Source: an uncultured Candidatus Saccharibacteria bacterium (GTDB lineage Bacteria > Patescibacteriota > CPR2 > UBA1875 > CAIMLA01). Taken from it: a DNA stretch of 64,000 nt. Each line of letters begins with the position of its first letter. Position 1 is the stretch's first letter. The position numbers were made by a program, and so were the translations under genes. Of this stretch, positions 3,238-15,490 are shown one piece after another. The notes below the pieces were generated by a model. The model was not told where the DNA came from and did no database searches. It worked only from the letters and a program-made list of their open reading frames with translations. The stretch spans positions 28,850-92,849 of the forward strand of contig CAZQLQ010000001.1 of NCBI GenBank assembly GCA_964594415.1, in the 5' to 3' direction.

Positions 3238-3313
3238 GCGCTCGTAGCTCAGGGGATAGAGCAGTAGCCTTCTAAGCTATTGGCCGGAGGTTCGAATCCT
3301 CCCGAGCGCGCCA
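3238..3313 (+). tRNA. tRNA-Arg (anticodon TCT)
   Basis: A 76-nt cloverleaf: acceptor GCGCTCG/CGAGCGC, D-arm GCTC-AGGGGATA-GAGC, anticodon loop CTTCTAA, T-arm GGAGG-TTCGAAT-CCTCC, and an encoded CCA. Confidence 0.9.
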
Positions 3314-3470: not shown

Positions 3471-3546
3471 GGGCCTGTAGCTCAGTCGGTAGAGCAATTG
3501 CCTCTTAAGCAACTGGTCGTGGGTTCGAGTCCCACCAGGCCCTCCA
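3471..3546 (+). tRNA. tRNA-Lys (anticodon CTT)
   Basis: A 76-nt cloverleaf: acceptor GGGCCTG/CAGGCCC, anticodon loop CTCTTAA, T-arm GTGGG-TTCGAGT-CCCAC, and an encoded CCA. Confidence 0.88.
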
Positions 3547-3768: not shown

Positions 3769-4287
3769 ATGTCAGAAGAAACAAAGACACCACAAGAATC
3801 AAGAGATATTACGACAATTCTAATTGTTGCAGCCATCATTATTTTGGCTTGTATTATCGGTTTTGCATGGAATAAATCAAATAAGGACGAAGAAGCGAAT
3901 GCAAATACCACCACTACGACTATTGTAGAGACAGCAAAAGATGCAGGCGCAATGGGATCAAATGAAATCAGCATAACATCCGATAACTTTTCTGAGAAAG
4001 TAGAGAAGTCAGATAAGCTTGTTGTTGTTGATATGTTTATGCCTTCCTGTCCGCATTGCAAAGATTACGCTCCTAACTTTACAGCTGTCGCCGATGAATA
4101 TTCTGGAAAAGCAGTCGTATTTGGCAAAATGGATCTTTCGGTAGCTTCTAATAATAAATTTGCAAATGATATGGGGATTAACAGTGTTCCAACAACTTTG
4201 ATCTACAAAGATGGCAGTCAAGTGTCAAAAATGGTTGGGTCAAAAACCCCTGATGAGCTAAAGGCAGAGATTGGTAAATATCTTTAA
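3769..4287 (+). CDS. membrane-anchored thioredoxin-family protein (CPHC active site)
   Basis: An N-terminal TM helix, a Thr-rich linker, then a thioredoxin fold with FMPSCPHCKDYAP. Confidence 0.7.
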   Translation: MSEETKTPQESRDITTILIVAAIIILACIIGFAWNKSNKDEEANANTTTTTIVETAKDAGAMGSNEISITSDNFSEKVEKSDKLVVVDMFMPSCPHCKDYAPNFTAVADEYSGKAVVFGKMDLSVASNNKFANDMGINSVPTTLIYKDGSQVSKMVGSKTPDELKAEIGKYL

Positions 4288-4289
4288 TT

Positions 4290-4322
4290 GAAAAAAGCGC
4301 CCCTTGCGGGGCGCTTTTAGAT
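4290..4322. terminator. bidirectional rho-independent terminator
   Basis: aaaaaagcgcccc-ttgc-ggggcgctttt lies between convergent genes. Confidence 0.7.
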
Positions 4323-4331
4323 TTTTTATAA

Positions 4332-4721
4332 TTATTTTTGTTTTTTCTCGTAATAATCGAGAAGTTCTTTTACTCTAACTGCGACTTCGAGCGGGGTAAG
4401 TTCGGACTTGATCAGATACTCTGTTGCCCCCAGTTTATATATCTGTTCTGCGGTTTTTTCATCTGCAAGGTTGGTAAGAACAATTACTAAAAGTTCACTT
4501 AGCTCAGGATCTTGCTTCACCTGCCTTAGTACTTCAAAACCATCAACCAGTGGCATCATTATATCGAGTAGTAAGACATCGGGTTGAATCCTTTTTATTT
4601 CGTCTAATGCGCTTTGACCATCCTCTACCGAGAAAACTTCAAACCCCTCCAATCCAAATTTTAGTTTATACATATCTAGAAGTTGGATATCATCTTCAGC
4701 TATCAATATCTTTGTTGCCAT
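4332..4721 (-). CDS. stand-alone response regulator receiver domain (CheY-like)
   Basis: AEDD, LLDIMMP (phospho-acceptor Asp), conserved T and K positions. No output domain; 129 aa. Confidence 0.8.
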   Translation of the reverse strand: MATKILIAEDDIQLLDMYKLKFGLEGFEVFSVEDGQSALDEIKRIQPDVLLLDIMMPLVDGFEVLRQVKQDPELSELLVIVLTNLADEKTAEQIYKLGATEYLIKSELTPLEVAVRVKELLDYYEKKQK

Positions 4722-4816: not shown

Positions 4817-6565
4817 ATGTCAAGCTCAGAAAAGGTTTTTTCCCCAAAGAATATTTTTGAATTGTTCTTGAATAGCGCGGAAAAATATCATAAGAAGGAA
4901 GCGCTTCGATATAAGACAGGACATTATTATGAACATTTGAGATACGAAGACTTAAAGAATGAGGTAATTTCCTTAGCAGTATCTTTAAGAAAAATGGGGC
5001 TTAAAAAAGGAGACAGGGTAATCTTGTTTTCTGAGAATAGGCCAGAATGGGTAATTTGTGATTTAGCATTTGCAGCAATCGGAGTAGTAAACGTTCCTGT
5101 TCATGTCGTTCTCTCGGTGCCTCAGTTTGTAGATATAATTAATGAAATAGAGCCGAAGGTTTTGTTTTTCTCTGGAAACAGTTCCTTGGAAAAAATCTTA
5201 GAGGCTTATAAACTGATAAACAGAATTCCTTGTACGATCTCCTATGAAAAGATTAGTTCTGAAAGAATTAGCAATTTAATCTTCTTTAAAGAGCTTATTT
5301 CGCATAAACCTTCAAAAAAAGAGGAACTGTCAGTAATAGAGCATTCTGGAGAGGTAGGGCCTACTGATCTTATTAGTATTACTTACACTTCGGGGTCTAC
5401 CGGACATCCGAAAGGCGTTAAGCTAACCCACGGGAACATAATTGAAAATATTAAATCAATAATGGATTCCTATCAAGATGATATAAAGCCAGAGGATAGG
5501 CTCTTTTCCGTTTTGCCATTGTCGCACATATTTGAAAGGACTGCGGGATATTATGTGCCATTTTGTTATGGTGCGAGTATATCTTATTGTATTGATTTAA
5601 CTGACTTTTCAAATGAGATTAAAGATATTAGGCCTACTATAATTCTTGCTGTTCCGAGACTTTTTGAAAAAATGTATGATCAAATATTAATGAAGGCAGA
5701 AGCAAATATTCTTTCAAAAATTTTATTTCGATATGCTATTTACGTTAGAACTAAAAATAGAAACAGGGTTCTTGTTGATGCGTTTGACAAATTGGTTTTT
5801 AGCAAAATTAGAAAAAACTTGGGTGGAGAGATTAGATTTTTTGTTTCAGGTGGCGCACCACTCTCACAAGAATTAGCTGAGTTTTTTGAAAAAGTAGGTC
5901 TAATTATTTTAGAAGGGTATGGACTCACTGAAACATCTCCGGTCATAGCTAGTACCAGACTAAGAGATTACCGTTTCGGGACTGTGGGCCCTGTTGTTTC
6001 GGGAGTAGATATTAGTTTCGGTAGAAACAGCGAGATCTTTGTTAAAGGGCCAAATGTATTTAGTGGATATATAAATGAAGATGATAATAAGACTTGCTTT
6101 GTTGACGGCTGGTTTAGAACAGGAGATCTTGGGCATCTCGATAGGGGAGGATGCCTAGTAATTACTGGGAGAAGGAAGGAAATGATCGTTCTTTCTACAG
6201 GGAAAAAGGTAATACCAACGACAGTAGAGGATGCCCTCGAGGATAGTGTTTATATAGAACAAGCATTTGTCTGGGGGGAAGGAAAGAAACATATTTGTGC
6301 TTTAATCGTCCCTAATTTTGAGGCGCTAAGTAGTAAGTTTAAAAAACCTACACACGAGTTAGTAGGGAATAAGGCCGTAAACTCTCTTGTCGCACTTGAA
6401 GTAAAAGAAAGAACCAAGGACTTGGCTTCTTACGAAAAAGTTAACAAGTTTGAGGTTATCAGTAATCCCTTTACCATTGATAACGGTGAACTTACTCCCA
6501 CAATGAAGCTAAGAAGGCACGTAATATATAAAAGATACAGTGACCTGATCGAAGAAATGTATTAG
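4817..6565 (+). CDS. AMP-dependent synthetase / long-chain fatty acid--CoA ligase
   Basis: The YTSGSTGHPKGV AMP-binding motif and 582 aa overall architecture match FadD-like ligases. Confidence 0.8.
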   Translation: MSSSEKVFSPKNIFELFLNSAEKYHKKEALRYKTGHYYEHLRYEDLKNEVISLAVSLRKMGLKKGDRVILFSENRPEWVICDLAFAAIGVVNVPVHVVLSVPQFVDIINEIEPKVLFFSGNSSLEKILEAYKLINRIPCTISYEKISSERISNLIFFKELISHKPSKKEELSVIEHSGEVGPTDLISITYTSGSTGHPKGVKLTHGNIIENIKSIMDSYQDDIKPEDRLFSVLPLSHIFERTAGYYVPFCYGASISYCIDLTDFSNEIKDIRPTIILAVPRLFEKMYDQILMKAEANILSKILFRYAIYVRTKNRNRVLVDAFDKLVFSKIRKNLGGEIRFFVSGGAPLSQELAEFFEKVGLIILEGYGLTETSPVIASTRLRDYRFGTVGPVVSGVDISFGRNSEIFVKGPNVFSGYINEDDNKTCFVDGWFRTGDLGHLDRGGCLVITGRRKEMIVLSTGKKVIPTTVEDALEDSVYIEQAFVWGEGKKHICALIVPNFEALSSKFKKPTHELVGNKAVNSLVALEVKERTKDLASYEKVNKFEVISNPFTIDNGELTPTMKLRRHVIYKRYSDLIEEMY

Positions 6566-6577
6566 AATTGGTTTATT

Positions 6578-7459
6578 ATGGAAAATGCTATAGAAGTAAA
6601 AAAGTTAAAGAAAACATTTGGCAAAGTTATTGCCGTGGAAGATGTTTCTTTTGAGATAAAAGAAGCCGAGATTTTTGGTTTTTTAGGACCTAATGGGGCG
6701 GGCAAAACAACAACAATACGCTGTATTATGGATTTTATAAGACCAACTGAAGGAGAAATTTTAATAAACGGGATTGATGCGCAGAAGAATTCCGTAAAAG
6801 CCAAAGAGATAATCGGTTATCTTTCTGGCAACGTAAGACTATACGGCAGTTGGACAGGAAGAGATCATATAGACTTTATTGAAAGCATTCGAGGAAAATC
6901 AAAAAATGTTAATGAGCTCATTAAAAAACTCGATTTTAATCCAAATGTGAAATTTCATAATCTATCAAGCGGTAACAAGCAGAAGTTGGGACTGATTATA
7001 GCTCTTATGTCAGATCCGAAAATCTTAATAATGGACGAACCTACGGTAGGTCTCGACCCCTTGCTTCAAAATACGATTTATGAGATATTGCTCGATCTGA
7101 AGAAAGAGGGCGTAACTATACTTATCTCTTCTCATAATCTCAGTGAAGTTGAAAAGCTTTGTGACAAGGTAGGTATTATAAAACAGGGTAGGATGGTCGC
7201 GGTCGAACCCATAAATGAACTTGGCGAGAAGAAATTACATAGGGTAGAAGTAACGTTTGAGAGTAAATTTGAAGCCCCGGATTTTAATATTCAGGGGATT
7301 GAGAGAATTGATGAAATAAAAGATGGTCTGAGTTTCACTGTCAGCGGTGACATAAACCCACTAATTAAAAAATTAGCCGGTTACAAGCTGCAAGACATCC
7401 AAATTTCTCATGCAAGCCTAGAAGACGTATTCTTGAAATTTTACGGGAGGGAGAAATAA
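6578..7459 (+). CDS. ABC transporter ATP-binding protein
   Basis: Walker A GPNGAGKTT, signature LSSGNKQK, Walker B ILIMDEPTVGLD. Confidence 0.85.
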   Translation: MENAIEVKKLKKTFGKVIAVEDVSFEIKEAEIFGFLGPNGAGKTTTIRCIMDFIRPTEGEILINGIDAQKNSVKAKEIIGYLSGNVRLYGSWTGRDHIDFIESIRGKSKNVNELIKKLDFNPNVKFHNLSSGNKQKLGLIIALMSDPKILIMDEPTVGLDPLLQNTIYEILLDLKKEGVTILISSHNLSEVEKLCDKVGIIKQGRMVAVEPINELGEKKLHRVEVTFESKFEAPDFNIQGIERIDEIKDGLSFTVSGDINPLIKKLAGYKLQDIQISHASLEDVFLKFYGREK

Positions 7460-8268
7460 TGTTAGGTATTTTTTTTCGTTCTCTCAAAAATAATCGAAAC
7501 CAATTGGTTATTTATAGTTTGGCAAGCATAGCTTTTCTAGAGATTTATATCGCGATGTTTCCTATGATGAAAAGTCAAACAGAACAGTTGACGGAACTCC
7601 TTAAGATGTATCCGGAGTCTTTCATGAAGGCTTTTGGGTTTGATACGAGTCAGCTTCTGTTTGATAAAATAGGGGCTTTTTTGGCTACGGAGCAATTTAC
7701 CTTTATGTGGCCAATAATGGCTATTCTATTTCTGGTCTCTTATTCAAATTCTTGTATAGCGGGAGAAGTAGACAAAGGGACGATGGAAATGATTCTTTCA
7801 CAACCGGTATCCAGAATAAAGATCTTTATAGTCCGTTATTTGGCTGGACTAACAAACTTTTTAATATTTACGTTTGTATCTGTATTTGCAGTTGTTCCTT
7901 TGACTCTAATGCATGGAATTGAATTTGATATAAAAAGTTTAACCATATTTTTTTTAGAAGCATTTTTATTTGGTTTAGCGATTTATAGCTTGTCAATGTT
8001 TAGCTCTTCAATGTTCTCCGATAAAGGCAAGGCAAGTCTAGTTACTTCTGGAGTTCTTATAATAATGTACGTTGCAAATATAGTGGCGGGATTAAAAGAT
8101 AGCTTTTCTGATCTAAAGTATTTCTCATTTTTCCACTATTACAACCCTTCTTCAGCTCTTGTAAAAAATACTATTCCCGATTGGACTGTTCTAGTGTTTT
8201 TGGGATTTTCGTTAGTAATGTTTATATCTGCAATATTTTGGTTCAATAAGAGGGATATAGCGGTTTAA
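7459..8268 (+). CDS. ABC-2 family transporter permease
   Basis: A 6-TM hydrophobic 269-aa protein. Its start overlaps the stop of the ATPase gene. Confidence 0.65.
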   Translation: MLGIFFRSLKNNRNQLVIYSLASIAFLEIYIAMFPMMKSQTEQLTELLKMYPESFMKAFGFDTSQLLFDKIGAFLATEQFTFMWPIMAILFLVSYSNSCIAGEVDKGTMEMILSQPVSRIKIFIVRYLAGLTNFLIFTFVSVFAVVPLTLMHGIEFDIKSLTIFFLEAFLFGLAIYSLSMFSSSMFSDKGKASLVTSGVLIIMYVANIVAGLKDSFSDLKYFSFFHYYNPSSALVKNTIPDWTVLVFLGFSLVMFISAIFWFNKRDIAV

Positions 8269-8276
8269 ATCCTGAA

Positions 8277-9068
8277 ATGAAAAAGTATTTTAGAAAAATT
8301 GAAAAAGTTAAAGTCGGAAAAAATCATGGTAAGAAGATTTTTTTTGCCGAATTAATTAAAAATCCTCATAAAAATATTTCAAATGAAAAACGAACAGAAC
8401 TTTTAAAGGAAGTTCAATTCTTATCAAAAAAAGGTTGGGGCGATTTCGATAATCTTTATCTTAAAAAAGGAATTCTAAAATCATTTTTACTTTGTTTGTT
8501 ACGAGATGAGAACAATAGTTTAGTTGGAATGACGGCTATTAAAAAAAATAAAATATTTAATCGTGATGTTTATTCGATCGGTTTGTCTGTCGTTGATCCA
8601 GATTTTAGAGGTCTAGACCTATTAACTAGAATGGCTGTTATATTAATAAAGCGCATATTTATGGAGAGTGTTTTTAGGGGTAATTTTACAATTGAAGTTA
8701 TCTTCATTACTCCAAATATTCGTACAATGGGAGCGATTGCAAGAGAGGCGGATTTCATTTATCCAAATCCGTATGATTTTAATGAAAAAAAACAAAGTAT
8801 AGATGAGGCTGATGAAGAAACCTGGAAAACAGTAAAAGAATACCTTAGAGTTACGAAAGAAGAATATAGAAGGCTAGATAGGGAGGGTTGTGTAATGGAG
8901 GGGTTTTATGATACCAGGCCGCATTTGATTGTTAAAGAAAATGAGCATTTAGATAAAAAGTTGAATAGTTTTGGAAGGAAATATCTTTATTCTTCACCGG
9001 GTAAGGAGATCGTAGTCAGAGCCAAGATTGGCTTAGGGGCTTTGATCAGAAATGTTACTAGCCTTTGA
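8277..9068 (+). CDS. hypothetical protein (possible acyltransferase-like fold; uncertain)
   Basis: A 263-aa ORF with no confident motif. It lies between the ABC exporter and the ThiF-like gene. Confidence 0.4.
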   Translation: MKKYFRKIEKVKVGKNHGKKIFFAELIKNPHKNISNEKRTELLKEVQFLSKKGWGDFDNLYLKKGILKSFLLCLLRDENNSLVGMTAIKKNKIFNRDVYSIGLSVVDPDFRGLDLLTRMAVILIKRIFMESVFRGNFTIEVIFITPNIRTMGAIAREADFIYPNPYDFNEKKQSIDEADEETWKTVKEYLRVTKEEYRRLDREGCVMEGFYDTRPHLIVKENEHLDKKLNSFGRKYLYSSPGKEIVVRAKIGLGALIRNVTSL

Positions 9069-9095
9069 AAAATAAGGTAAAATCTAGGATTTTGT

Positions 9096-9416
9096 ATGTT
9101 TAAAAATATTAAGACAAAATATAATAGTATTCCTGAGAAATATGGTGTAAGCCCCGTAACATTTATGGTTTTATATATAGGAACATCCCCATTGTTCTTA
9201 TATTTTTTGTACCTAGTTATTAAGCATCACAAAAACACTGAAGCTTTTTTAATATATCTAATGGTTGATTTAGTAATTTTTGTTTTACCATTTATATATG
9301 TTTTGTTCTTTGGAAAAAATTTTCCGAAGAAATTCTATCCTGTTTTTTGGATAATATTTACCCTAATTATAATAATATCATTTAGGGAAATATGGCCATT
9401 GTTATTAAATCGATAA
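9096..9416 (+). CDS. small integral membrane protein (3 predicted TM helices)
   Basis: 106 aa, very hydrophobic. It lies immediately upstream of the ThiF-like gene. Confidence 0.45.
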   Translation: MFKNIKTKYNSIPEKYGVSPVTFMVLYIGTSPLFLYFLYLVIKHHKNTEAFLIYLMVDLVIFVLPFIYVLFFGKNFPKKFYPVFWIIFTLIIIISFREIWPLLLNR

Positions 9417-9433
9417 AACTATAATATGTATAT

Positions 9434-10210
9434 ATGAAATACGAGGAATTGTTTCAGAGAAATATTGGAATATTTACCCAAAAAGAACAAGAAGTCTTGA
9501 GAAATTCCACTGTTACTATTGCAGGGGTTGGTGGCGTTGGAGGAATTGTTCTTGAAAGACTTGTGCGTTTGGGCGTAGAGAATTTTATTATCGGGGATCC
9601 TGAGAAATTTGAGGCGAATAATTTCAATAGGCAGATGTATTCCAATATTGAGACTATCGGATTGAATAAGGCGAGAGTTTTGGCTCGGGAAGTAAAGAAA
9701 ATAAATCCTAATGTTAAAATAAAATGCTTTGAAAATGGCATAAATAGGGAAAATGTTGAGGAGTTTGTTCAGTCTGACATAATAATAGATGCAATAGAAT
9801 ATAATTTACCATACCTTCTGTTTCTTCTTCATAAAGCCGCAAGAGAGAGAAATAAAATGGTATTAGCTGCTCAGGCGATAGGATTTGGCGCTACACTGTT
9901 TGTTTTTAGTAAGGATTCGATCGCATTTGAGGACTACATAGGATTAAAAAATGCTAATGTTATGACCCCGGAAAAAATAAATAATTATAAAATTCCTATA
10001 AAAAAGTTTTGTCCTATAATGCCAAAGTATGTTTCAAAAACATTAGCGCTAAAGGTTTTTTTGAGAAAAACATATATTCCTAGTTGTAGCTTGGGTGTGA
10101 TGGCAGCTGCTTCTTTGTTGGAAATTGTAGTTATTAAACAGTTGTTAGAAAGAGAAAAAATTAGATTGACGCCTAAGTACTATTTTTTAGATTTTTATAA
10201 CGATTTGTAG
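9434..10210 (+). CDS. ThiF/MoeB/HesA-family E1-like adenylyltransferase
   Basis: A TIAGVGGVGG nucleotide-binding loop and a Rossmann E1-like fold; 258 aa. No C-terminal rhodanese or CxxC domains. Confidence 0.75.
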   Translation: MKYEELFQRNIGIFTQKEQEVLRNSTVTIAGVGGVGGIVLERLVRLGVENFIIGDPEKFEANNFNRQMYSNIETIGLNKARVLAREVKKINPNVKIKCFENGINRENVEEFVQSDIIIDAIEYNLPYLLFLLHKAARERNKMVLAAQAIGFGATLFVFSKDSIAFEDYIGLKNANVMTPEKINNYKIPIKKFCPIMPKYVSKTLALKVFLRKTYIPSCSLGVMAAASLLEIVVIKQLLEREKIRLTPKYYFLDFYNDL

Positions 10211-10213
10211 AGG

Positions 10214-12895
10214 GTGATAATGGAGGGTATTTATTTAACAGTTTTTGTTAGTTTGATAAACTTTATTCTAGGAATAATTATTTACATTCGGAACAGAAAG
10301 TCACCGGTAAATGTTTCTTTTGCTCTAACTGTTTTTTCTATAGTTTGTTGGACGATTTTTAATCATTTTGCTAATCAGCAAAACGATATGGCATTGCTTC
10401 TTACACGATTAACTATTATTTCTGGGCATTTAATAGCGTTTTTCTTATTCTTTTTCTTAAGGTCTTTTTTTAATTATAAGTTTAAAGAAGTAATTATATA
10501 TGGGGTGGAACTTTTGACTGCTACTAGTATTCTTCTTTCGATAACGCCGTTTTATGCTGAAGGGGTCAAATACATCCCAACTGGAACCGGAGTAACTTAT
10601 GGACCATTGATTATGGGATATTTTCTTACACTTTCGTTACTGATTATACTCAACGTCTTTGTTTTAGTGAAAGGTTACGTTTTGGCCGAGGGAACCTTGA
10701 GGAGTCAAGCCAAGTTTGTATTATTTGGAATAATATTGAGTTTATTTTTTGCAACCATAACTAACCTTTTAATACCGGTTATTTACAAGAGTCAACAATA
10801 TTCTCAGCTAGGTCCAGTATTCACAGTCTTCTTTGTTAGTTTTATTTTTTATGCCATTATAAAACATAGGCTCATGGATATTCGTTTAGTCGTTGCGAGG
10901 TCGTTATCTTATGCAGCACTACTGCTTATATTAGCTGTGTTTTACGCTACGGGCATTCTTGGCCTAGAGAGAATTATTTTCCCGAACTCCTCTGGCAGTA
11001 TCTCTATATATCAAGCTGCTTTTAGAATATCACTTACTGCTATAATTGCCTTCAGCTTTCAGCCGATAAAAAATTGGGTAACGGAAAGAACTGATAGAAT
11101 ATTTTTTAAGGGTCAATATAATTCTGAAGAGCTTTTGTCTGTTCTCTCACATGTTTTGAGTTCATCGATAGTTTTGATAGAACTTATCTACAAGGTTACA
11201 GATATTCTAATCAAAGAAATGCGAGTATCTCGTAGCATGTTTGTTCTTTTGGAAAACGAAAATAAGATATATACAACGCAGCTGAATGGTTATAAAAAAT
11301 CGATAAAAATAGAACCGAAGGATGTTTATATTTTAGCAAATCAACCAATGTTGATACTTAGTGAGCTTGAATATAATTCAAGAATCAAGAGCATTCTTGA
11401 TAAATACGATGGGGAGCTCTCTCTTCCACTAAAAACCGACAAAGGGCTCTTGGGAGTGTGGATTCTGGGGGAGAAAAACTCTGGAGAATCATATAGTCAG
11501 CAAGACTATCAGATTTTAGAAATATTAATACCAGAAATCGCAGTTGCTATAGAAAACGCAAAAGCTTACGAAGAAATCAGCGCTTTCAACAAGACGCTTA
11601 AGCAGGAAATCGAACATGCTACTCATAAACTAGAAATCCAGAATAGCGAGTTGATAAAAACGGGTCGTCAGCTTGAGGATCTGGTTAACTTTCTACCTGA
11701 TGCTACCTTTGCTATCGATACCAAAGGATGCGTAATTATCTGGAACAAGATGATGGAAGAGCTGACAGGCACTACTGCAGAGTCGATAATCGGCAAGGGT
11801 AATCGTAGATTTGCACATAGCTTTGGCTACAAAAAAGAGCTAACTCTTGCTGAACAGATATTACAGGGGAGCTTAGTAAAAAATGATCATTATAGAAGTA
11901 TAAGGAGAGAGGGAGACTCATTGTACGCTGAAGTTTATTTTTCTAACCTTAATGGCAACAAGGCATTCTTGGGAGCGAAGGCAGCTCCTTTGTATGATCA
12001 GGATCGAAATGTAGTTGGCGCAATAGAATCTCTGCGCGATATCTCGGAGATAAAAAAAGTCGAAAAAATACTTAGAAAGAGCAACGAGGAGTTACGTAAG
12101 ATCGATCTGGCAAAAGATGACTTTATCTCTATGGCCTCACATCAGCTTAGGACCCCAATTACTGCCATAAAAGGGTATCTTTCTATGCTTATTGAAGGCG
12201 ATGCCGGAGAGGTTAAGATTAGTCAATATGATTTTATTTTGGAAGCATATAGGGCCAGCAATCGCATGACCGGTCTAGTAAATGATCTTTTGAATGTTTC
12301 ACGAATGGAGGCTGGTAGATTCTTTCTAGAAGTAAATGAGGTTGATATTGACTCTATCATCCAAGAAGAGATGAAACAGCTTGAGGGAACAATAAGGGAG
12401 AAGGGGCTTTACTTTAGATACAAAAAGGGGAAAAATGTTCCCTCCGTTTCTGCTGACAAAACTAAGATACGGCAAGTTATAATGAATTTTATTGACAACT
12501 CGGTTTACTATACTAGAAAAGGTGGAATTACAGTTGAACTATATAAAGAGGGTGACGGCGTAGTTTTTATGGTTTCGGATACGGGAATAGGCGTTCCAAA
12601 AAATCAGCAATCCGGATTGTTTCAGAAATTCTATCGTGCCGATAACGCGAAGAATACACGTCCTGATGGAACCGGTCTCGGATTATTTCTAGCGAAAAAA
12701 GTTATTGAGAGCCATAGCGGTAAGATAATATTCAAATCTACTGAGGGGGTTGGATCAACGTTTGGATTTAAGATACCAATAAAGAATATGGCGAAAAAGT
12801 TTTCGGTAGTTATGCCAGAAGTTTCAAGCTTAGGAACAGCTATCTCTCAGGAGGCAACAAGGCAAAATTCTGATTTGGTAAAAAAGGAAAATTGA
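10214..12895 (+). CDS. multi-TM sensor histidine kinase with a PAS domain
   Basis: An N-terminal ~7-TM region, then a PAS segment (FAIDTKGCVIIWNKMMEELTG), then HisKA DDFISMASHQLRTPITAIKGY, then an HATPase_c G-box. Confidence 0.85.
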   Translation: MIMEGIYLTVFVSLINFILGIIIYIRNRKSPVNVSFALTVFSIVCWTIFNHFANQQNDMALLLTRLTIISGHLIAFFLFFFLRSFFNYKFKEVIIYGVELLTATSILLSITPFYAEGVKYIPTGTGVTYGPLIMGYFLTLSLLIILNVFVLVKGYVLAEGTLRSQAKFVLFGIILSLFFATITNLLIPVIYKSQQYSQLGPVFTVFFVSFIFYAIIKHRLMDIRLVVARSLSYAALLLILAVFYATGILGLERIIFPNSSGSISIYQAAFRISLTAIIAFSFQPIKNWVTERTDRIFFKGQYNSEELLSVLSHVLSSSIVLIELIYKVTDILIKEMRVSRSMFVLLENENKIYTTQLNGYKKSIKIEPKDVYILANQPMLILSELEYNSRIKSILDKYDGELSLPLKTDKGLLGVWILGEKNSGESYSQQDYQILEILIPEIAVAIENAKAYEEISAFNKTLKQEIEHATHKLEIQNSELIKTGRQLEDLVNFLPDATFAIDTKGCVIIWNKMMEELTGTTAESIIGKGNRRFAHSFGYKKELTLAEQILQGSLVKNDHYRSIRREGDSLYAEVYFSNLNGNKAFLGAKAAPLYDQDRNVVGAIESLRDISEIKKVEKILRKSNEELRKIDLAKDDFISMASHQLRTPITAIKGYLSMLIEGDAGEVKISQYDFILEAYRASNRMTGLVNDLLNVSRMEAGRFFLEVNEVDIDSIIQEEMKQLEGTIREKGLYFRYKKGKNVPSVSADKTKIRQVIMNFIDNSVYYTRKGGITVELYKEGDGVVFMVSDTGIGVPKNQQSGLFQKFYRADNAKNTRPDGTGLGLFLAKKVIESHSGKIIFKSTEGVGSTFGFKIPIKNMAKKFSVVMPEVSSLGTAISQEATRQNSDLVKKEN

Positions 12896-12933: not shown

Positions 12934-14139
12934 ATGAAAAAGTTAAGGATATATGAAGCGATTACTTTATGTTTAATTGTAATAGCTGGTATAATGGTGG
13001 CTTTCGGATACACAATGGCTAGCGATAGTGGATCGTCTTCACAGGGCTCGGCTATTTATACTTCTGAATATATAGAAACACTAAATGAGCCGTATATTAT
13101 TAGTCCTACTACGGGTTCAACAATCTATGGGGAACAGCTAAATGTAAAGATTTATGCACCAAACTCACTTACGGGTAGTGGCCATAGTCAGATTTTTAAT
13201 ATAATCAACTCTAGTACGCTTACGCCGATGCTCACTAGAGAAGAACAACTAGAAAAAAATGAATATGGTGTAATAATCTTTCCAACGATAGGGCTAGCAA
13301 ATTTCCCTGATGGTGCTTATTCTCTCAGAGTTGAGCTTTCTTATCCTGACCCATATAACACTACAATTCTTATTTCTAGAAATGTCGAGCTGGATTTTAT
13401 GGTTTCTCATACAACAATTTCTACAAGTACTACAACCACTACGAAGAATATTGATACTAACACCAGTAACACAACTGTAACCACTAGAAGTACTGCTGTT
13501 TTGGCGCCGAAGCCGACCACTACAACGACAACAAAGCCCCCTATTTCTATAGTTGATGAGCAGCTTAAGGCGACTAACAATAGTAACTCCGAATATATAG
13601 GTCTTAGCATTAAAGAGGTTCAGGGCATCTTAATTAAGCAGGAAGAAGAGAAAAAACTCCCTCAGGAACTTAGGGTAGCTCCAGAAGTTACAGTTCTTAA
13701 AACTACTAATGCAGAGGTCAATATGGTAGACGATACAAAGGGAACCGTAAAATTAACAGGTAAGGCAGAGCCGAACCAATTAGTTTATTTATATATATTC
13801 TCTGAACCCATAGTAGTTTCTGTCCAGACAGACGGTAACGGAGATTGGGAATACAATTTGGATAAGGAGCTTGCGACGGGTGAACATAAAGTATATGTTG
13901 CTGTAAAGAACGATGATAGCACAGTAAAAGCTAAAAGTTCAGCATTCAGTTTTATTATTGGTCAAGCAATCGCTGCCTCTCCAACACAAAATCAAAACGC
14001 AGCTAATGCAAATAGTGCGAACTATCTCTATTACTACATTATGTTTGCTGTTTCTATTGTTACGTTAATTGTCTCAATGATTTTCTTTGTATTAACTAAG
14101 AAGAAAATAAAACAGCATGCACTTCAACTTCAAGGTTAA
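12934..14139 (+). CDS. Thr-rich surface protein with N- and C-terminal TM anchors
   Basis: An N-terminal TM, poly-Thr linkers (TTTTTK), and a C-terminal hydrophobic helix followed by KKKIK. Confidence 0.5.
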   Translation: MKKLRIYEAITLCLIVIAGIMVAFGYTMASDSGSSSQGSAIYTSEYIETLNEPYIISPTTGSTIYGEQLNVKIYAPNSLTGSGHSQIFNIINSSTLTPMLTREEQLEKNEYGVIIFPTIGLANFPDGAYSLRVELSYPDPYNTTILISRNVELDFMVSHTTISTSTTTTTKNIDTNTSNTTVTTRSTAVLAPKPTTTTTTKPPISIVDEQLKATNNSNSEYIGLSIKEVQGILIKQEEEKKLPQELRVAPEVTVLKTTNAEVNMVDDTKGTVKLTGKAEPNQLVYLYIFSEPIVVSVQTDGNGDWEYNLDKELATGEHKVYVAVKNDDSTVKAKSSAFSFIIGQAIAASPTQNQNAANANSANYLYYYIMFAVSIVTLIVSMIFFVLTKKKIKQHALQLQG

Positions 14140-15490
14140 CTCAGAATTCCTTACAGACTACAAACAGCTGATTTTTAGTATTGTAATCATCATGCTAATC
14201 CCGGCTCTGATTGTATTTAATACTTATTATATTGTTACCAAAATGCAGGAAAATATGGATGTTGAACTTCGTGATAAGGCGATAATGGCAGCACAAGGAT
14301 TGAATGTATCTCTTATTAACAATCTTGAAGATAAAGAAGAAATCAAATCTAAAATTGATGAATATTCTAAATTAACTGATAATATCAAAAAAATTACAGT
14401 AATACAGAAAGAAAACGATGATTTTAGTGTTTTAACAAACCTTGGGACCGAAGCTGAGGTTATTGACGATGATGTAATGAACTACTTAAGCTGGGTTGGC
14501 TCGAACCCAATTGCGAGCTTGGTAGTGTCGGATGATGACCAGGTTGTTGGAGATAAGCAGATATTTAAAGGAGAGAGGTTTTGGTCTGTAACTTTACCTC
14601 TTAAGGACAGTGAGGGCAATAAAGTCTATTTGGCAAATATTTGGGTTTCTCTAGCCGATGTAGATTCTCTAATGTCGCAAACAGTTATGGATGCAGGGAT
14701 TATCTTAGCTATATCGATAATGGTGATATTACTATTAGTTGCAAGCAATGGACAACTTTTTAAGTATTCAATTCTTTTCCAGAAACTAAAAGAGGTTGAT
14801 CAGATGAAGGACGACTTTATTTCAATTGCCTCTCACGAGCTTAGGACGCCCCTAACGGCCATAAAAGGCTATATTTCGCTAATTGAAGATGATGAAAAGA
14901 AACATAATCTTACGAAAGATCAAAGAAACAGAATGATGAACGGAATCTCAACGAGTGCGCAAAGGCTGAATGATCTAGTTTCTGATATATTAGATGTTTC
15001 GAGGATCGAACAGGACAGAGTTAAGATTGAAATGGAAAAATGTGGAATAATTGAGATCGCTCAAAAGGTAACCAATCAATTGAGTCTTCAGGCAAAAGAT
15101 AAGAAGCTTAGGTTAGTAGAAAAGTACCCTAAAAAAGAGGTTTATTCAAACTTGGATAAGACCAAGCTAGAGCAGATACTTATTAATTTGATAGGAAACT
15201 CGATAAAATATACCCTTCAAGGGGAGATAGAAGTAAGTATTACCTCGGATGCCGTTAATAATATTATAAACATTAGAGATACGGGTATTGGGATGAACGA
15301 AGATGAAAGAAAGAAGCTGTTTACAAAGTTTTATCGTGTTCAAAGTGAGGAAACTAGAGAGGTAGTTGGTACGGGTCTTGGGCTTTGGATTACAAAACAG
15401 CTTGTCGAAACTATGGGCGGAAAAATTACCGTCGATAGTATAAAAAATGTAGGAACTCAATTTACCGTAATATTCCCAATCTATAAATAA
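14117..15490 (+). CDS. sensor histidine kinase (periplasmic sensor domain between two TMs)
   Basis: HisKA DDFISIASHELRTPLTAIKGY and an HATPase_c (DTGIGM..GTGLGL). Confidence 0.85.
   Translation: MHFNFKVNSEFLTDYKQLIFSIVIIMLIPALIVFNTYYIVTKMQENMDVELRDKAIMAAQGLNVSLINNLEDKEEIKSKIDEYSKLTDNIKKITVIQKENDDFSVLTNLGTEAEVIDDDVMNYLSWVGSNPIASLVVSDDDQVVGDKQIFKGERFWSVTLPLKDSEGNKVYLANIWVSLADVDSLMSQTVMDAGIILAISIMVILLLVASNGQLFKYSILFQKLKEVDQMKDDFISIASHELRTPLTAIKGYISLIEDDEKKHNLTKDQRNRMMNGISTSAQRLNDLVSDILDVSRIEQDRVKIEMEKCGIIEIAQKVTNQLSLQAKDKKLRLVEKYPKKEVYSNLDKTKLEQILINLIGNSIKYTLQGEIEVSITSDAVNNIINIRDTGIGMNEDERKKLFTKFYRVQSEETREVVGTGLGLWITKQLVETMGGKITVDSIKNVGTQFTVIFPIYK

What the first reader, a model, noticed from the sequence alone, without database searches (positions are those of the whole stretch)
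4817..10210. Candidate modification/export locus: acyl-CoA ligase, ABC exporter, unknown 263-aa protein, small membrane protein and ThiF/E1-like enzyme
A stand-alone ThiF-family E1-like adenylyltransferase has no adjacent MoaD/ThiS-like partner and no rhodanese domain. It is co-oriented and tightly spaced with an ABC ATPase/ABC-2 permease pair, an AMP-dependent acyl-CoA ligase, an uncharacterised 263-aa protein and a 3-TM mini-protein. E1-like enzymes in such contexts activate C-termini of peptides (microcin C-like, RiPPs) or ubiquitin-like proteins. The set could be an uncharacterised peptide or metabolite acylation/adenylation and export system.
Basis: inference. Interest (0 to 1): 0.5.

Follow-up and report, generated by a model that had tools for sequence, protein, structure and literature searches.

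The report
Sensor-linked lipo-amino-acid operon in Patescibacteria
This is a real, conserved operon of tiny uncultured (Patescibacteria) bacteria that most likely attaches a scavenged fatty acid to an amino acid, chemically activates the product with a ThiF-type enzyme, and is wired to its own membrane sensor kinase. It is a new, sensor-coupled variant of the recently discovered "oxazolone synthetase" lipid pathways, not a peptide or ubiquitin-like system.

Summary
They are co-oriented and 1-27 nt apart. The unit is larger: it runs without a break into a 7TM histidine kinase (10214-12895) and faces a divergent receiver-only response regulator (4332-4721).

In 22 non-redundant loci, a 7TM kinase lies downstream of the GNAT-like gene in 16 of 16 assessable cases, and the order GNAT-like, 3-TM protein, ThiF, optional SAM methyltransferase, kinase recurs. 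A long-chain acyl-CoA ligase is often upstream and twice overlaps the GNAT-like gene by 4 nt.

The ThiF belongs to a clade whose members are fused to FeeM-type N-acyl amino acid synthases, SAM methyltransferases or flavin oxidases. The last architecture matches OxzB and TrzS. The 3-TM protein occurs fused to a FeeM synthase and to a methyltransferase.

No precursor peptide, ubiquitin-like partner or flavin oxidase is present.

Best reading: fatty acyl-CoA, then N-acyl amino acid, then ThiF-adenylated or cyclised (azlactone-type) lipid, exported and/or sensed by the kinase. This is a new variant of a known kind. Product and physiological role are inferred.

The parts
4332..4721 (-). Receiver-only response regulator (129 aa), transcribed divergently from the operon
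   Evidence: PF00072 E 1e-21. Orthologues (E 1e-43 to 1e-48) sit divergently upstream of the ligase or ABC genes in L001, L006, L017, L018, L019 and L027. A bidirectional terminator at 4293-4318 bounds it.
4817..6565 (+). Long-chain fatty acid-CoA ligase (AMP-forming), the presumed acyl-donor supplier
   Evidence: PF00501 E 1e-70 plus PF23562. The best NCBIfam matches are FadD11 and long-chain FA-CoA ligases, all below equivalog cut-offs. Orthologues lie upstream of the GNAT-like gene in L006, L017, L018, L019, L022 and L031, with a fragment in L007. The stop/start overlap is 4 nt in L022 and L031.
6578..7459 (+). ABC transporter ATPase (DrrA/GldA-like)
   Evidence: PF00005 E 1e-27; TIGR01188 drrA 199 bits, below cut-off. 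Close orthologues lie next to the response regulator in L001 and L027/L028.
7459..8268 (+). ABC-2 type permease
   Evidence: PF12679 E 1e-18. Orthologues are found in L001 and L027 (adjacent) and in L002 and L015 (about 10 kb upstream).
8277..9068 (+). Divergent GNAT-fold acyltransferase (263 aa) of a rare, unnamed family; putative N-acyltransferase occupying the N-acyl amino acid synthase position
9096..9416 (+). 3-TM membrane module (106 aa), a conserved partner of the acyltransferase
   Evidence: Conserved family with motifs Y-x-V-x-P, P-x-Y-Y-x-G and PY-x-YV-x-x-WG-x-N-x-P. It is present in 17 of 22 non-redundant loci. It occurs fused N-terminally to a FeeM synthase in L042 (E 2.7e-34) and to a SAM methyltransferase in L021.
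9434..10210 (+). Stand-alone ThiF-like adenylating (cyclase-type) enzyme of the PRK08223-related clade
   Evidence: PF00899 E 2e-31. NF006077 PRK08223 scores 184 bits (cut-off 266); ThiF, MoeB and TcdA models are all far below cut-off. The adenylation residues are conserved across the alignment: R9, the GxGGxG motif 31-36, N65-R66-Q67, K79 and D119. The nearest fused relatives are FeeM-ThiF (173 bits), ThiF-MT (170 bits) and ThiF-FDO (147 bits), against 52 bits for TcdA and 42 bits for E. coli ThiF.
10214..12895 (+). Membrane sensor histidine kinase: HisKA_7TM, PAS, HisKA, HATPase_c (893 aa), last conserved gene of the operon
   Evidence: PF16927 E 5e-10, PF13426, PF00512 and PF02518. It starts 3 nt after the ThiF stop. 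A 7TM kinase lies downstream of the GNAT-like gene in 16 of 16 assessable non-redundant loci.

Best explanation
The locus is one operon plus a divergent response regulator. It makes and handles a membrane-associated lipo-amino-acid derivative.

Step 1, inferred from family: the acyl-CoA ligase activates a long-chain fatty acid, probably scavenged, since these organisms have very small genomes.

Step 2, fold shown, activity inferred: the 263-aa GNAT-fold enzyme works at the membrane with the 3-TM module and transfers the acyl group to the amino group of an amino acid. It takes the place that FeeM/OxzA/TyzA-type N-acyl amino acid synthases hold in related operons.

[quoted passage not shown] The amide oxygen then attacks to give a saturated 5(4H)-oxazolone (azlactone), or another nucleophile captures the adenylate. 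Relatives carry a SAM methyltransferase that modifies the product further. This window lacks that gene, and it lacks the flavin oxidase that would desaturate the ring.

Step 4, inferred: the ABC-2 transporter moves the lipid out of, or within, the envelope.

Step 5, linkage shown, ligand inferred: the co-transcribed 7TM histidine kinase and the receiver protein sense the product or its membrane level. This makes a producer-sensor circuit.
For: The operon structure and gene families are confirmed.

The 263-aa protein has a GNAT fold.

Across 22 non-redundant loci at 30-70% protein identity, the order GNAT-like, TM, ThiF, optional methyltransferase, 7TM kinase recurs. The kinase is present in 16 of 16 assessable loci. 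The ligase lies upstream in 7-8 loci and is translationally coupled to the GNAT-like gene in L022 and L031.

Other lipid enzymes replace the ligase directly upstream of the GNAT-like gene: PlsC in L001 and L027 (with a homologous ORF at the same position in L023), and patatin in L002. An alpha/beta hydrolase accompanies the ligase in L017-L019.

In five independent contexts, homologues of this ThiF (36-52% identity) sit in the same slot, next to a recognised amide-forming enzyme and a membrane signalling protein:
- L040: FeeM/Autoind_synth/PF13444 synthase, ThiF, methyltransferase and a 7TM kinase, preceded by three stand-alone 7TM proteins.
- L042: a TM-module-FeeM fusion, ThiF, methyltransferase and a 7TM kinase, with an AMP ligase nearby.
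- L011: a PF13444 synthase, ThiF, methyltransferase and a multi-TM GGDEF-HD protein.
- L009 and L038: a GH3 amido synthetase, ThiF and a 7TM-GAF-GGDEF-HD protein.

Gene fusions among the top 150 relatives of this ThiF are 9 FeeM-ThiF (one with PilZ), 8 ThiF-MT or MT-ThiF, and 21 ThiF-FDO or FDO-ThiF. The ThiF-FDO proteins match PRK14851 and the Rv1355c (TrzS) flavin-oxidase region.

Published biochemistry supports the chemistry. OxzA/OxzB, TyzA/B/C and TrzA/S carry out acyl-CoA-dependent N-acylation followed by ATP-dependent ThiF-type cyclisation. TrzS releases a cyclised saturated intermediate when the oxidase is disabled (10.1101/2020.06.11.147165; PMC10404671; PMC12856293).

Distant branches of the GNAT-like family lack ThiF and instead carry a pyruvoyl decarboxylase: PvlArgDC in L003 and L035, and phosphatidylserine decarboxylase in L036 and L037. 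In L036 the decarboxylase directly precedes the kinase. This is consistent with the amino-acid carboxylate being the site worked on at this step.
Against: No enzyme activity or product was observed. Everything beyond fold and linkage is inference.

Its CoA-binding motif A is degenerate in the main clade. It reads RGLDLL in the window, and the canonical QxxGxG is kept only in the distant members P0023 and P0024. The acyl donor may therefore not be acyl-CoA, and the acceptor is unknown.

No flavin oxidase is present in the window or in any related locus. A stable unsaturated oxazolone of the Oxz/Tyz/Trz type cannot be the product, and a saturated azlactone is hydrolytically labile.

The window ThiF scores below the PRK08223 cut-off (184 against 266 bits).

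I could not place OxzB, TyzB or TrzS themselves in a tree with it. The TrzS model NF005901 matches only its N-terminal half, at 51 bits.

The ABC pair and the ligase are not universally linked.

All loci carrying the 263-aa protein whose source record names a taxon are Patescibacteria, so part of the synteny may be inherited rather than selected.
Confidence: 0.55

Rival explanations
1. Structural membrane aminolipid synthesis or remodelling, not a signal. The GNAT-like enzyme acts like OlsB/GlsB and makes an N-acyl amino acid lipid from scavenged fatty acids. ThiF activates its carboxylate so it can be joined to another head group or lipid. The ABC-2 system flips it. The 7TM kinase monitors envelope state. 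This shares steps 1-3 with the best explanation and differs in the fate and role of the product.
For: PlsC-type acyltransferase lies directly upstream of the GNAT-like gene in L001 and L027 (with a homologous ORF at the same position in L023), which resembles the OlsB/OlsA pairing. Patatin and alpha/beta hydrolase neighbours occur, and phosphatidylserine decarboxylase appears in L036 and L037. The membrane-embedded 3-TM partner is fused to the synthase or the methyltransferase. Patescibacteria depend on scavenged lipids (general knowledge).
Against: No PF13444 or OlsB similarity. No PlsC in this window. Known aminolipid pathways have no ThiF step. The invariant pairing with a sensor protein, and PilZ or GGDEF-HD partners in other lineages, fit a regulatory molecule better than a bulk lipid. 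The family is very rare, which is odd for a core membrane function.
Confidence: 0.2
2. The ThiF adenylates the C-terminus of a ribosomal peptide (microcin C-like or RiPP) or of a small protein. The GNAT modifies it or confers immunity, and the ABC system exports it.
For: Microcin C clusters combine MccB (ThiF-like), a SAM-methyltransferase-like MccD, a GNAT domain (MccE) and an exporter (PMC4010828 and general knowledge). Radical SAM/SPASM genes with small neighbouring ORFs occur near the module in several relatives.
Against: No precursor-sized ORF lies in the 8-27 nt gaps or in the 95-nt divergent promoter region. No ORF ends in Gly-Gly anywhere in the window. The ThiF domain starts at residue 8, so there is no MccB/PaaA-type N-terminal peptide-binding domain. 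PDB matches to MccB (37 bits) and PaaA (25 bits) are far weaker than matches to the synthase-fused clade at 140-170 bits. The 3-TM protein C-termini are not conserved. No radical SAM gene lies near the module in this window.
Confidence: 0.05
3. Antibiotic or toxin sensing and detoxification module. The kinase and response regulator sense an envelope-active compound, the ABC-2 pump expels it, and the GNAT acylates it. ThiF and the ligase would be unrelated passengers.
Confidence: 0.07
4. There is no functional unit. The gene order is inherited synteny within a narrow group of Patescibacteria, and the ThiF performs a housekeeping reaction such as a TcdA-like tRNA modification.
For: All loci carrying the 263-aa protein whose source record names a taxon are Patescibacteria. 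Flanking housekeeping synteny (methylase, thioredoxin, response regulator) is also shared with L001 and L006.
Against: The core persists through 30-70% sequence divergence, insertions of 1-7 kb (L007, L019) and changing flanks. The analogous synthase-ThiF-methyltransferase-sensor modules occur in unrelated lineages, including Syntrophomonadaceae and Candidatus Aquicultor. Domain fusions exist among the parts. The TcdA model scores 61 bits against a cut-off of 304.
Confidence: 0.05

Closest known systems
Oxazolone synthetase pathways: OxzA/OxzB (Pseudoalteromonas rubra), TyzA/B/C and TrzA/TrzS (Mycobacterium tuberculosis), and stieleriacine-type NAS + methyltransferase + ThiF + nitroreductase clusters (Stieleria)
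   Same: A GNAT-fold N-acyltransferase gene lies next to a ThiF-like gene with intact adenylation motifs. The window ThiF lies in the same broad PRK08223/PRK14851-related clade as ThiF-flavin-oxidase di-domain proteins. An acyl-CoA supply is implied. A SAM methyltransferase accompanies the pair in many relatives, as in Stieleria (PMC12479983). Signalling genes are adjacent; trzAS lies next to c-di-GMP turnover genes (PMC12856293).
   Different: There is no flavin-dependent oxidase (nitroreductase superfamily), fused or nearby, so the unsaturated tyrazolone- or tryptazolone-type product is excluded. The acyltransferase is a separate, unnamed GNAT family with no detectable FeeM/TyzA similarity. 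A dedicated 3-TM module is present. An obligatory co-transcribed 7TM histidine kinase, a dedicated acyl-CoA ligase and an ABC-2 exporter are part of the locus. The host is Patescibacteria rather than Pseudomonadota, Actinomycetota or Planctomycetota.
Synthase-plus-sensor-kinase quorum-sensing pairs for lipophilic signals (LuxM/LuxN, CqsA/CqsS, PhcB/PhcS; LuxI-type GNAT-fold AHL synthases)
   Same: A small-molecule synthase, including a GNAT-fold acyltransferase (and in relatives a SAM methyltransferase), is encoded in one operon with a polytopic membrane histidine kinase and a response regulator. The product would be an N-acyl amino-acid-derived heterocycle that resembles AHLs chemically.
   Different: There is no sequence membership in LuxI, LuxM, CqsA or PhcB families. 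No ligand has been shown for any HisKA_7TM domain in the literature I could search. The response regulator has no output domain. Signalling is an inference from gene linkage only.
TcdA (tRNA ct6A synthase) and MccB/PaaA, ThiF-like enzymes that cyclise or modify an N-acylated amino-acid carboxylate
   Same: The chemistry is the same: ATP-dependent adenylation of a carboxylate next to an amide or urea, followed by intramolecular attack (review PMC12596934). TcdA is the second-closest solved structure by sequence (E 8e-13).
   Different: Those substrates are tRNA or ribosomal peptides. This ThiF lacks their extra domains and scores far below the TcdA and ThiF model cut-offs. Its neighbours are small-molecule enzymes.
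Bacterial aminolipid synthesis (OlsB/OlsA, GlsB/GlsA)
   Same: An N-acyltransferase of GNAT fold pairs with a PlsC-type O-acyltransferase in some relatives: PlsC is directly upstream of the GNAT-like gene in L001 and L027, with a homologous ORF at the same position in L023. The product is a membrane lipid.
   Different: There is no PF13444 or OlsB similarity and no PlsC in this window. Known aminolipid routes have no ThiF step and no sensor kinase.

Membership tests
Oxazolone-synthetase-type pathway (OxzAB / TyzABC / TrzAS) | ThiF-like enzyme with an intact adenylation motif, belonging to the clade linked to N-acyl amino acid synthases | tested here: met
   R9, the GxGGxG motif, N65-R66-Q67, K79 and D119 are conserved. 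The best NCBIfam hits are PRK08223, PRK14851 and PRK14852. Relatives at 140-173 bits are FeeM-ThiF, ThiF-MT and ThiF-FDO fusions. Caveats: the score is below the PRK08223 cut-off (184 against 266), and OxzB, TyzB and TrzS themselves were not available for a tree.
Oxazolone-synthetase-type pathway (OxzAB / TyzABC / TrzAS) | Adjacent N-acyl amino acid synthase of the FeeM/LuxI-like GNAT type | tested here: inconclusive
Oxazolone-synthetase-type pathway (OxzAB / TyzABC / TrzAS) | Flavin-dependent oxidase of the nitroreductase superfamily, fused to or adjacent to ThiF | tested here: not met
   An HMM built from 18 ThiF-fused oxidase domains finds nothing in the 64-kb window or in any of the 44 fetched loci. 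No nitroreductase Pfam hit appears in any gene table.
Oxazolone-synthetase-type pathway (OxzAB / TyzABC / TrzAS) | The product is an N-acyl oxazolone | not testable with these tools
   This needs expression and LC-MS.
ThiF/MoeB/E1 activation of ubiquitin-like sulfur carriers | Partner beta-grasp protein (ThiS, MoaD or Ubl) with a C-terminal Gly-Gly | tested here: not met
   No ORF of 40-130 aa ending in GG exists in the whole window, and none lies in the operon.
ThiF/MoeB/E1 activation of ubiquitin-like sulfur carriers | Score above the equivalog thresholds; Zn-binding CxxC pairs, a rhodanese domain or a catalytic Cys | tested here: not met
   ThiF NF006395 scores 89 bits against a cut-off of 159. 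TIGR02356 scores 80 against 275. MoeB NF004281 scores 57 against 266. The sequence has no CxxC motif, no cysteine is invariant in the alignment, and there is no extra domain.
Microcin C-like / RiPP ThiF enzymes (MccB, PaaA) | Short precursor peptide gene (for MccA, ending in Asn) and an N-terminal peptide-clamp domain on the enzyme | tested here: not met
   No tiny ORF lies in the operon gaps. The ThiF domain begins at residue 8 of 258. MccB scores 37 bits and PaaA 25 bits.
TcdA (tRNA ct6A dehydratase) | Score above the NF011696 threshold | tested here: not met
   61 bits against a cut-off of 304.
LuxI-type autoinducer synthase / FeeM / PF13444 N-acyl amino acid synthases | Match to PF00765, PF21926 or PF13444 | tested here: not met
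GNAT superfamily | GNAT alpha/beta fold with the beta4-alpha3 CoA-binding motif A | tested here: met
Two-component system with a HisKA_7TM sensor | HisKA_7TM, HisKA and HATPase_c domains plus a receiver protein | tested here: met
   PF16927 scores 40 bits (cut-off 28.6). PF00512, PF02518 and PF00072 also match.

The most novel reading that the evidence does not exclude
The operon encodes a previously unrecognised cell-cell or cell-host chemical signalling system. An N-acyl amino-acid-derived heterocycle or activated ester would be made by the GNAT-like enzyme, the 3-TM module and ThiF, and modified by a methyltransferase in relatives. It would be exported and then detected by the co-transcribed HisKA_7TM receptor. 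The same synthase-receptor logic recurs with FeeM or GH3 synthases and with kinase or c-di-GMP outputs in other lineages (Syntrophomonadaceae, Candidatus Aquicultor and unassigned metagenome contigs). If so, this would give HisKA_7TM domains their first ligand class, show ThiF-type chemistry as a signal-maturation step, and reveal an autoinducer-like system in genome-reduced episymbiotic Patescibacteria.
Probability: 0.3. Interest if true: 0.8.

Novelty: new variant of a known kind. Interest (0 to 1): 0.6.

Why it matters
ThiF-like enzymes acting on small molecules are known only from the oxazolone systems: OxzB (2021), TyzB and TrzS. A 2025 review that covers OxzB calls it the only ThiF-like enzyme acting on a small molecule (PMC12596934).

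This locus shows that a large, mostly uncharacterised sister group exists, with 980 representative clusters at E<=1e-30. It is coupled to N-acyl amino acid synthases, methyltransferases and, with striking regularity, 7TM sensor proteins, and it reaches into Patescibacteria.

It defines two new protein families with clear functional partners: the 263-aa GNAT-like enzyme and the 3-TM module.

It predicts oxidase-free azlactone-type or otherwise activated lipo-amino acids as natural products.

It offers a concrete, clonable route (about 5.4 kb) to finding a ligand for HisKA_7TM receptors and to learning how lipid-scavenging ultra-small bacteria use host fatty acids for something other than membranes.

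Tried and rejected
- Pfam, NCBIfam and PDB-sequence searches of the 263-aa and 106-aa proteins gave nothing usable.
- hhalign of the 263-aa family against the FeeM/PF13444 synthases of L040 and L011 showed no similarity. I therefore do not file it as a member of that family.
- The search for related loci with the broad ThiF alignment failed for lack of a conserved stretch.
- The afdb50 fold library was unavailable.
- I could not find a paper for PDB 9egb/9egc/9egd, the closest solved ThiF homologue at E 1.6e-15, so it adds no functional information.
- Literature searches for a described GNAT/NAS-ThiF-kinase module or for HisKA_7TM ligands found none.
- Scans for tiny ORFs and GG-terminal ORFs were negative, so the peptide and ubiquitin-like reading was rejected.
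- The promoter and terminator scan was uninformative, apart from the strong terminator at 4293-4318. Promoter-like sites were at background frequency.
- A specific LuxI-like assignment was considered and rejected, because LasI and RpaI score no better than generic GNATs.
- I looked in the window for the radical SAM/SPASM genes, the roughly 233-aa family and the PlsC, patatin, hydrolase and methyltransferase partners seen in relatives. None is present in the window.

Full report
OBSERVATION. Pfam and NCBIfam confirm an AMP-forming acyl-CoA ligase (4817-6565; PF00501 E 1e-70, with best matches to long-chain fatty-acid-CoA ligases). They also confirm a DrrA/GldA-like ABC ATPase (6578-7459), an ABC-2 permease (7459-8268) and a ThiF-family protein (9434-10210; PF00899 E 2e-31). 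The 263-aa (8277-9068) and 106-aa (9096-9416) products match no family. Gaps between genes are 12, -1, 8, 27 and 17 nt. The 106-aa protein has three hydrophobic segments. The ThiF is a single-domain protein with no rhodanese domain, and no MoaD/ThiS-like gene is nearby. Three nucleotides after the ThiF stop begins an 893-aa HisKA_7TM-PAS-HisKA-HATPase sensor kinase (10214-12895). Upstream, a 129-aa receiver-only response regulator (4332-4721, minus strand) is transcribed divergently, and a strong bidirectional terminator closes it off at 4293-4318.

NEIGHBOURHOOD CONSERVATION. I fetched 44 loci and scanned them with HMMs built in-session. After collapsing at 90% identity there are 22 non-redundant loci carrying the GNAT-like gene.
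- A 7TM sensor kinase lies downstream in 16 of the 16 loci that have enough sequence.
- The 3-TM protein is present in 17 loci, usually overlapping the GNAT-like stop codon.
- ThiF follows in 13 loci.
- A roughly 240-aa SAM methyltransferase sits between ThiF and the kinase in 7-8 loci. It is absent from this window.
- Upstream, the ligase recurs in 7-8 loci and overlaps the GNAT-like start by 4 nt in L022 and L031.
- The divergent receiver recurs in 7 loci.
- The ABC ATPase/permease pair sits next to the receiver in L001 and L027, as in the window.
- Other lipid enzymes occupy the position just upstream of the GNAT-like gene. These are PlsC in L001 and L027 (with a homologous ORF in L023) and patatin in L002. 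An alpha/beta hydrolase lies before the ligase in L017-L019.

The core survives insertions of 1-7 kb (L007, L019) and 30-70% sequence divergence. It is therefore a functional unit and not only inherited synteny. Shared flanking genes (thioredoxin, a methylase) show that some synteny is ancestral.

THE ThiF. By NCBIfam it is nearest to PRK08223 (184 bits, cut-off 266), PRK14851 and PRK14852. It is far below the thresholds for ThiF, MoeB, TcdA and the other named families. The adenylation residues are conserved: R9, GxGGxG, N65-R66-Q67, K79 and D119. No cysteine is invariant and there is no CxxC zinc site.

A profile search of 1.84 billion representatives found 980 proteins at E<=1e-30. Among the best 150, 114 are stand-alone. 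Nine are FeeM (N-acyl amino acid synthase)-ThiF fusions, one of which also carries PilZ. Eight are ThiF-methyltransferase fusions in either order. Twenty-one are fused to a flavin oxidase of the nitroreductase superfamily, and two are tandem ThiF. The oxidase fusions match PRK14851, and their C-termini match the Rv1355c (TrzS) and Acg oxidase models. This is the architecture that defines OxzB and TrzS. The window ThiF scores 173 bits to a FeeM-ThiF fusion, 170 to a ThiF-methyltransferase fusion and 147 to a ThiF-oxidase fusion. It scores 52 bits to TcdA and 42 bits to E. coli ThiF.

Homologues at 36-52% identity from other lineages sit in equivalent operons.
- Candidatus Aquicultor: a PF13444 synthase, ThiF, a methyltransferase and a multi-TM GGDEF-HD protein.
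- Syntrophomonadaceae and a related contig: a GH3 amido synthetase, ThiF and a 7TM-GAF-GGDEF-HD protein.
- L040: three stand-alone 7TM proteins, a FeeM/Autoind_synth synthase, ThiF, a methyltransferase and a 7TM-GAF kinase.
- L042: a FeeM synthase, ThiF, a methyltransferase and a 7TM kinase, with an AMP ligase and a radical SAM enzyme nearby.

Every one of these five independent contexts has an amide-forming enzyme and a membrane signalling protein beside the ThiF.

THE 3-TM PROTEIN. It is a conserved family with variable, basic C-termini, so it is not a ubiquitin-like or precursor protein. Two fusions tie it to the enzymes. In L042 it forms the N-terminal 126 residues of the FeeM synthase (E 2.7e-34). 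In L021 it is fused to the SAM methyltransferase, and that locus has no ThiF. It also persists in the distant branch of the family, in L003 and L035. I read it as a membrane anchor or substrate-handling module for the acyltransferase and tailoring enzymes.

WHAT REPLACES ThiF. In the distant branches of the GNAT-like family the ThiF is absent and a pyruvoyl-dependent decarboxylase is present instead. L003 and L035 carry arginine decarboxylase. L036 and L037 carry phosphatidylserine decarboxylase (PF02666, E 6e-43), which in L036 directly precedes the kinase. An enzyme that removes a carboxylate alternating with one that activates a carboxylate is what one would expect if the amino-acid carboxylate of the acylated product is the point of action. 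This is inference.

MECHANISM. Published work shows three relevant systems. OxzA/OxzB, TyzA/TyzB/TyzC and TrzA/TrzS first N-acylate an amino acid from acyl-CoA. A ThiF-like enzyme then cyclises it with ATP to a 5(4H)-oxazolone, and a flavin oxidase desaturates it. TrzS releases the cyclised saturated intermediate when the oxidase is disabled (10.1101/2020.06.11.147165; PMC10404671; PMC12856293). Stieleria clusters add a methyltransferase (PMC12479983). A 2025 review that covers OxzB calls it the only ThiF-like enzyme known to act on a small molecule (PMC12596934).

By homology of the ThiF clade, positional equivalence of the GNAT-like enzyme, the coupled ligase and the membrane module, I propose the following sequence. 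Fatty acid is converted to acyl-CoA by the ligase. The 263-aa enzyme with the 3-TM module makes an N-acyl amino acid. ThiF makes the acyl-adenylate, which closes to a saturated azlactone or is captured by another nucleophile. The ABC-2 system then exports or flips the product.

No flavin oxidase exists in the window or in any related locus. The product therefore cannot be a tyrazolone-type unsaturated oxazolone. In relatives the methyltransferase may stabilise it, for instance by methylating the enol tautomer, which is speculation. The co-transcribed 7TM kinase and the receiver most plausibly sense the product or its effect on the membrane.

The steps that are shown are the gene order, the folds, the clade membership, the fusions and the conservation. 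The steps that are inferred are every substrate, the product, the direction of transport and the ligand of the kinase.

RIVALS.
- A structural aminolipid pathway fits the PlsC, patatin and PS-decarboxylase neighbours. It fits less well with the rarity of the family and the invariant sensor partner.
- The peptide or ubiquitin-like reading is contradicted by the absence of any precursor ORF and by the ThiF's relatives.
- A drug-resistance module is contradicted because the pump is the least conserved element.
- Pure synteny is contradicted by the fusions and the cross-phylum recurrence.

NOVELTY. I found no description of a synthase-ThiF-(methyltransferase)-7TM sensor module, of the 263-aa family, or of the 3-TM family. 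The TrzAS authors do note adjacent c-di-GMP genes and raise a signalling role (PMC12856293). I therefore classify the locus as a new variant of a known kind. It works like the first two steps of an oxazolone synthetase pathway. It fails the membership test on the oxidase and on the synthase family, and it adds a dedicated membrane module and a sensor. Interest is 0.6. The most novel reading still open, a new class of autoinducer-like signal with a HisKA_7TM receptor in Patescibacteria and several other lineages, has a probability of about 0.3.

Noticed in passing
L001 7009-8409(-), L002 6379-7680, L003 5977-7380, L013 1718-4213, L017 7972-9300, L030 2766-4076 and 8118-9437, L036 2124-3254(-), L042 3762-5111: Radical SAM enzymes recur within a few kb upstream of the GNAT-like/ThiF module in at least eight loci. 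A SPASM domain was detected in those of L002, L017 and L030. In L002 and L030 the radical SAM gene lies near a roughly 233-aa protein of an unnamed family; members of that family also occur in L019 and L029. In L002 there are also 49- and 52-aa ORFs nearby. This could be a separate peptide-maturation system or a further tailoring step. No homologue lies near the module in this window.
   Followed up: partly
L003 9535-9999, L035 723-1190; L036 3414-4094, L037 794-1504: Distant members of the 263-aa family (30-36% identity, P0023 and P0024) lack ThiF and are paired with pyruvoyl-dependent decarboxylases. These are arginine decarboxylase PF01862 or phosphatidylserine decarboxylase PF02666. They still keep the 7TM kinase.
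   Followed up: partly
L042 6053-6982; L021 966-2012: The 3-TM mini-protein occurs as a domain fused to a FeeM N-acyl amino acid synthase (L042, residues 7-126) and to a SAM methyltransferase (L021).
   Followed up: yes
L040 323-2298: Three tandem stand-alone HisKA_7TM proteins (217-222 aa, with no kinase domain) precede the FeeM-ThiF-methyltransferase-7TM kinase genes. This suggests that the 7TM domain can act on its own, as a binding or transport module.
   Followed up: no
P0144 (680 aa), P0120 (746 aa): Relatives of the ThiF include a PilZ-FeeM-ThiF fusion, whose PilZ domain is a c-di-GMP-binding domain on the synthase. They also include a ThiF fused to a macrolide-type glycosyltransferase region. 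These hint at second-messenger control and at glycosylated products in other lineages.
   Followed up: no
window 12934-14139 and 14117-15490: Directly downstream of the operon are a 401-aa protein with a bacterial Ig-like (Big_13) domain and a second, 457-aa histidine kinase that overlaps it by 23 nt. Neither was found at the same position in the relatives I inspected.
   Followed up: partly
window 3238-3313, 3471-3546, 4293-4318: tRNA-Arg(TCT) and tRNA-Lys(CTT) lie upstream. A strong 11-bp GC-rich bidirectional terminator separates a thioredoxin gene (3769-4287) from the response regulator. The order methylase, thioredoxin, response regulator is shared with L001 and L006.
   Followed up: partly
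P0016 (L002 10001-10792): One source names a member of the 263-aa family as a 'predicted ribosome quality control (RQC) complex YloA/Tae2 family protein'. Nothing in the fold or domain searches supports that name.
   Followed up: partly
PDB 9egb / 9egc / 9egd: The closest solved structure to the window ThiF is an unpublished or unlocated 265-aa 'THIF-type NAD/FAD binding fold domain-containing protein' (full-length alignment, E 1.6e-15). Its function could bear on this clade.
   Followed up: partly
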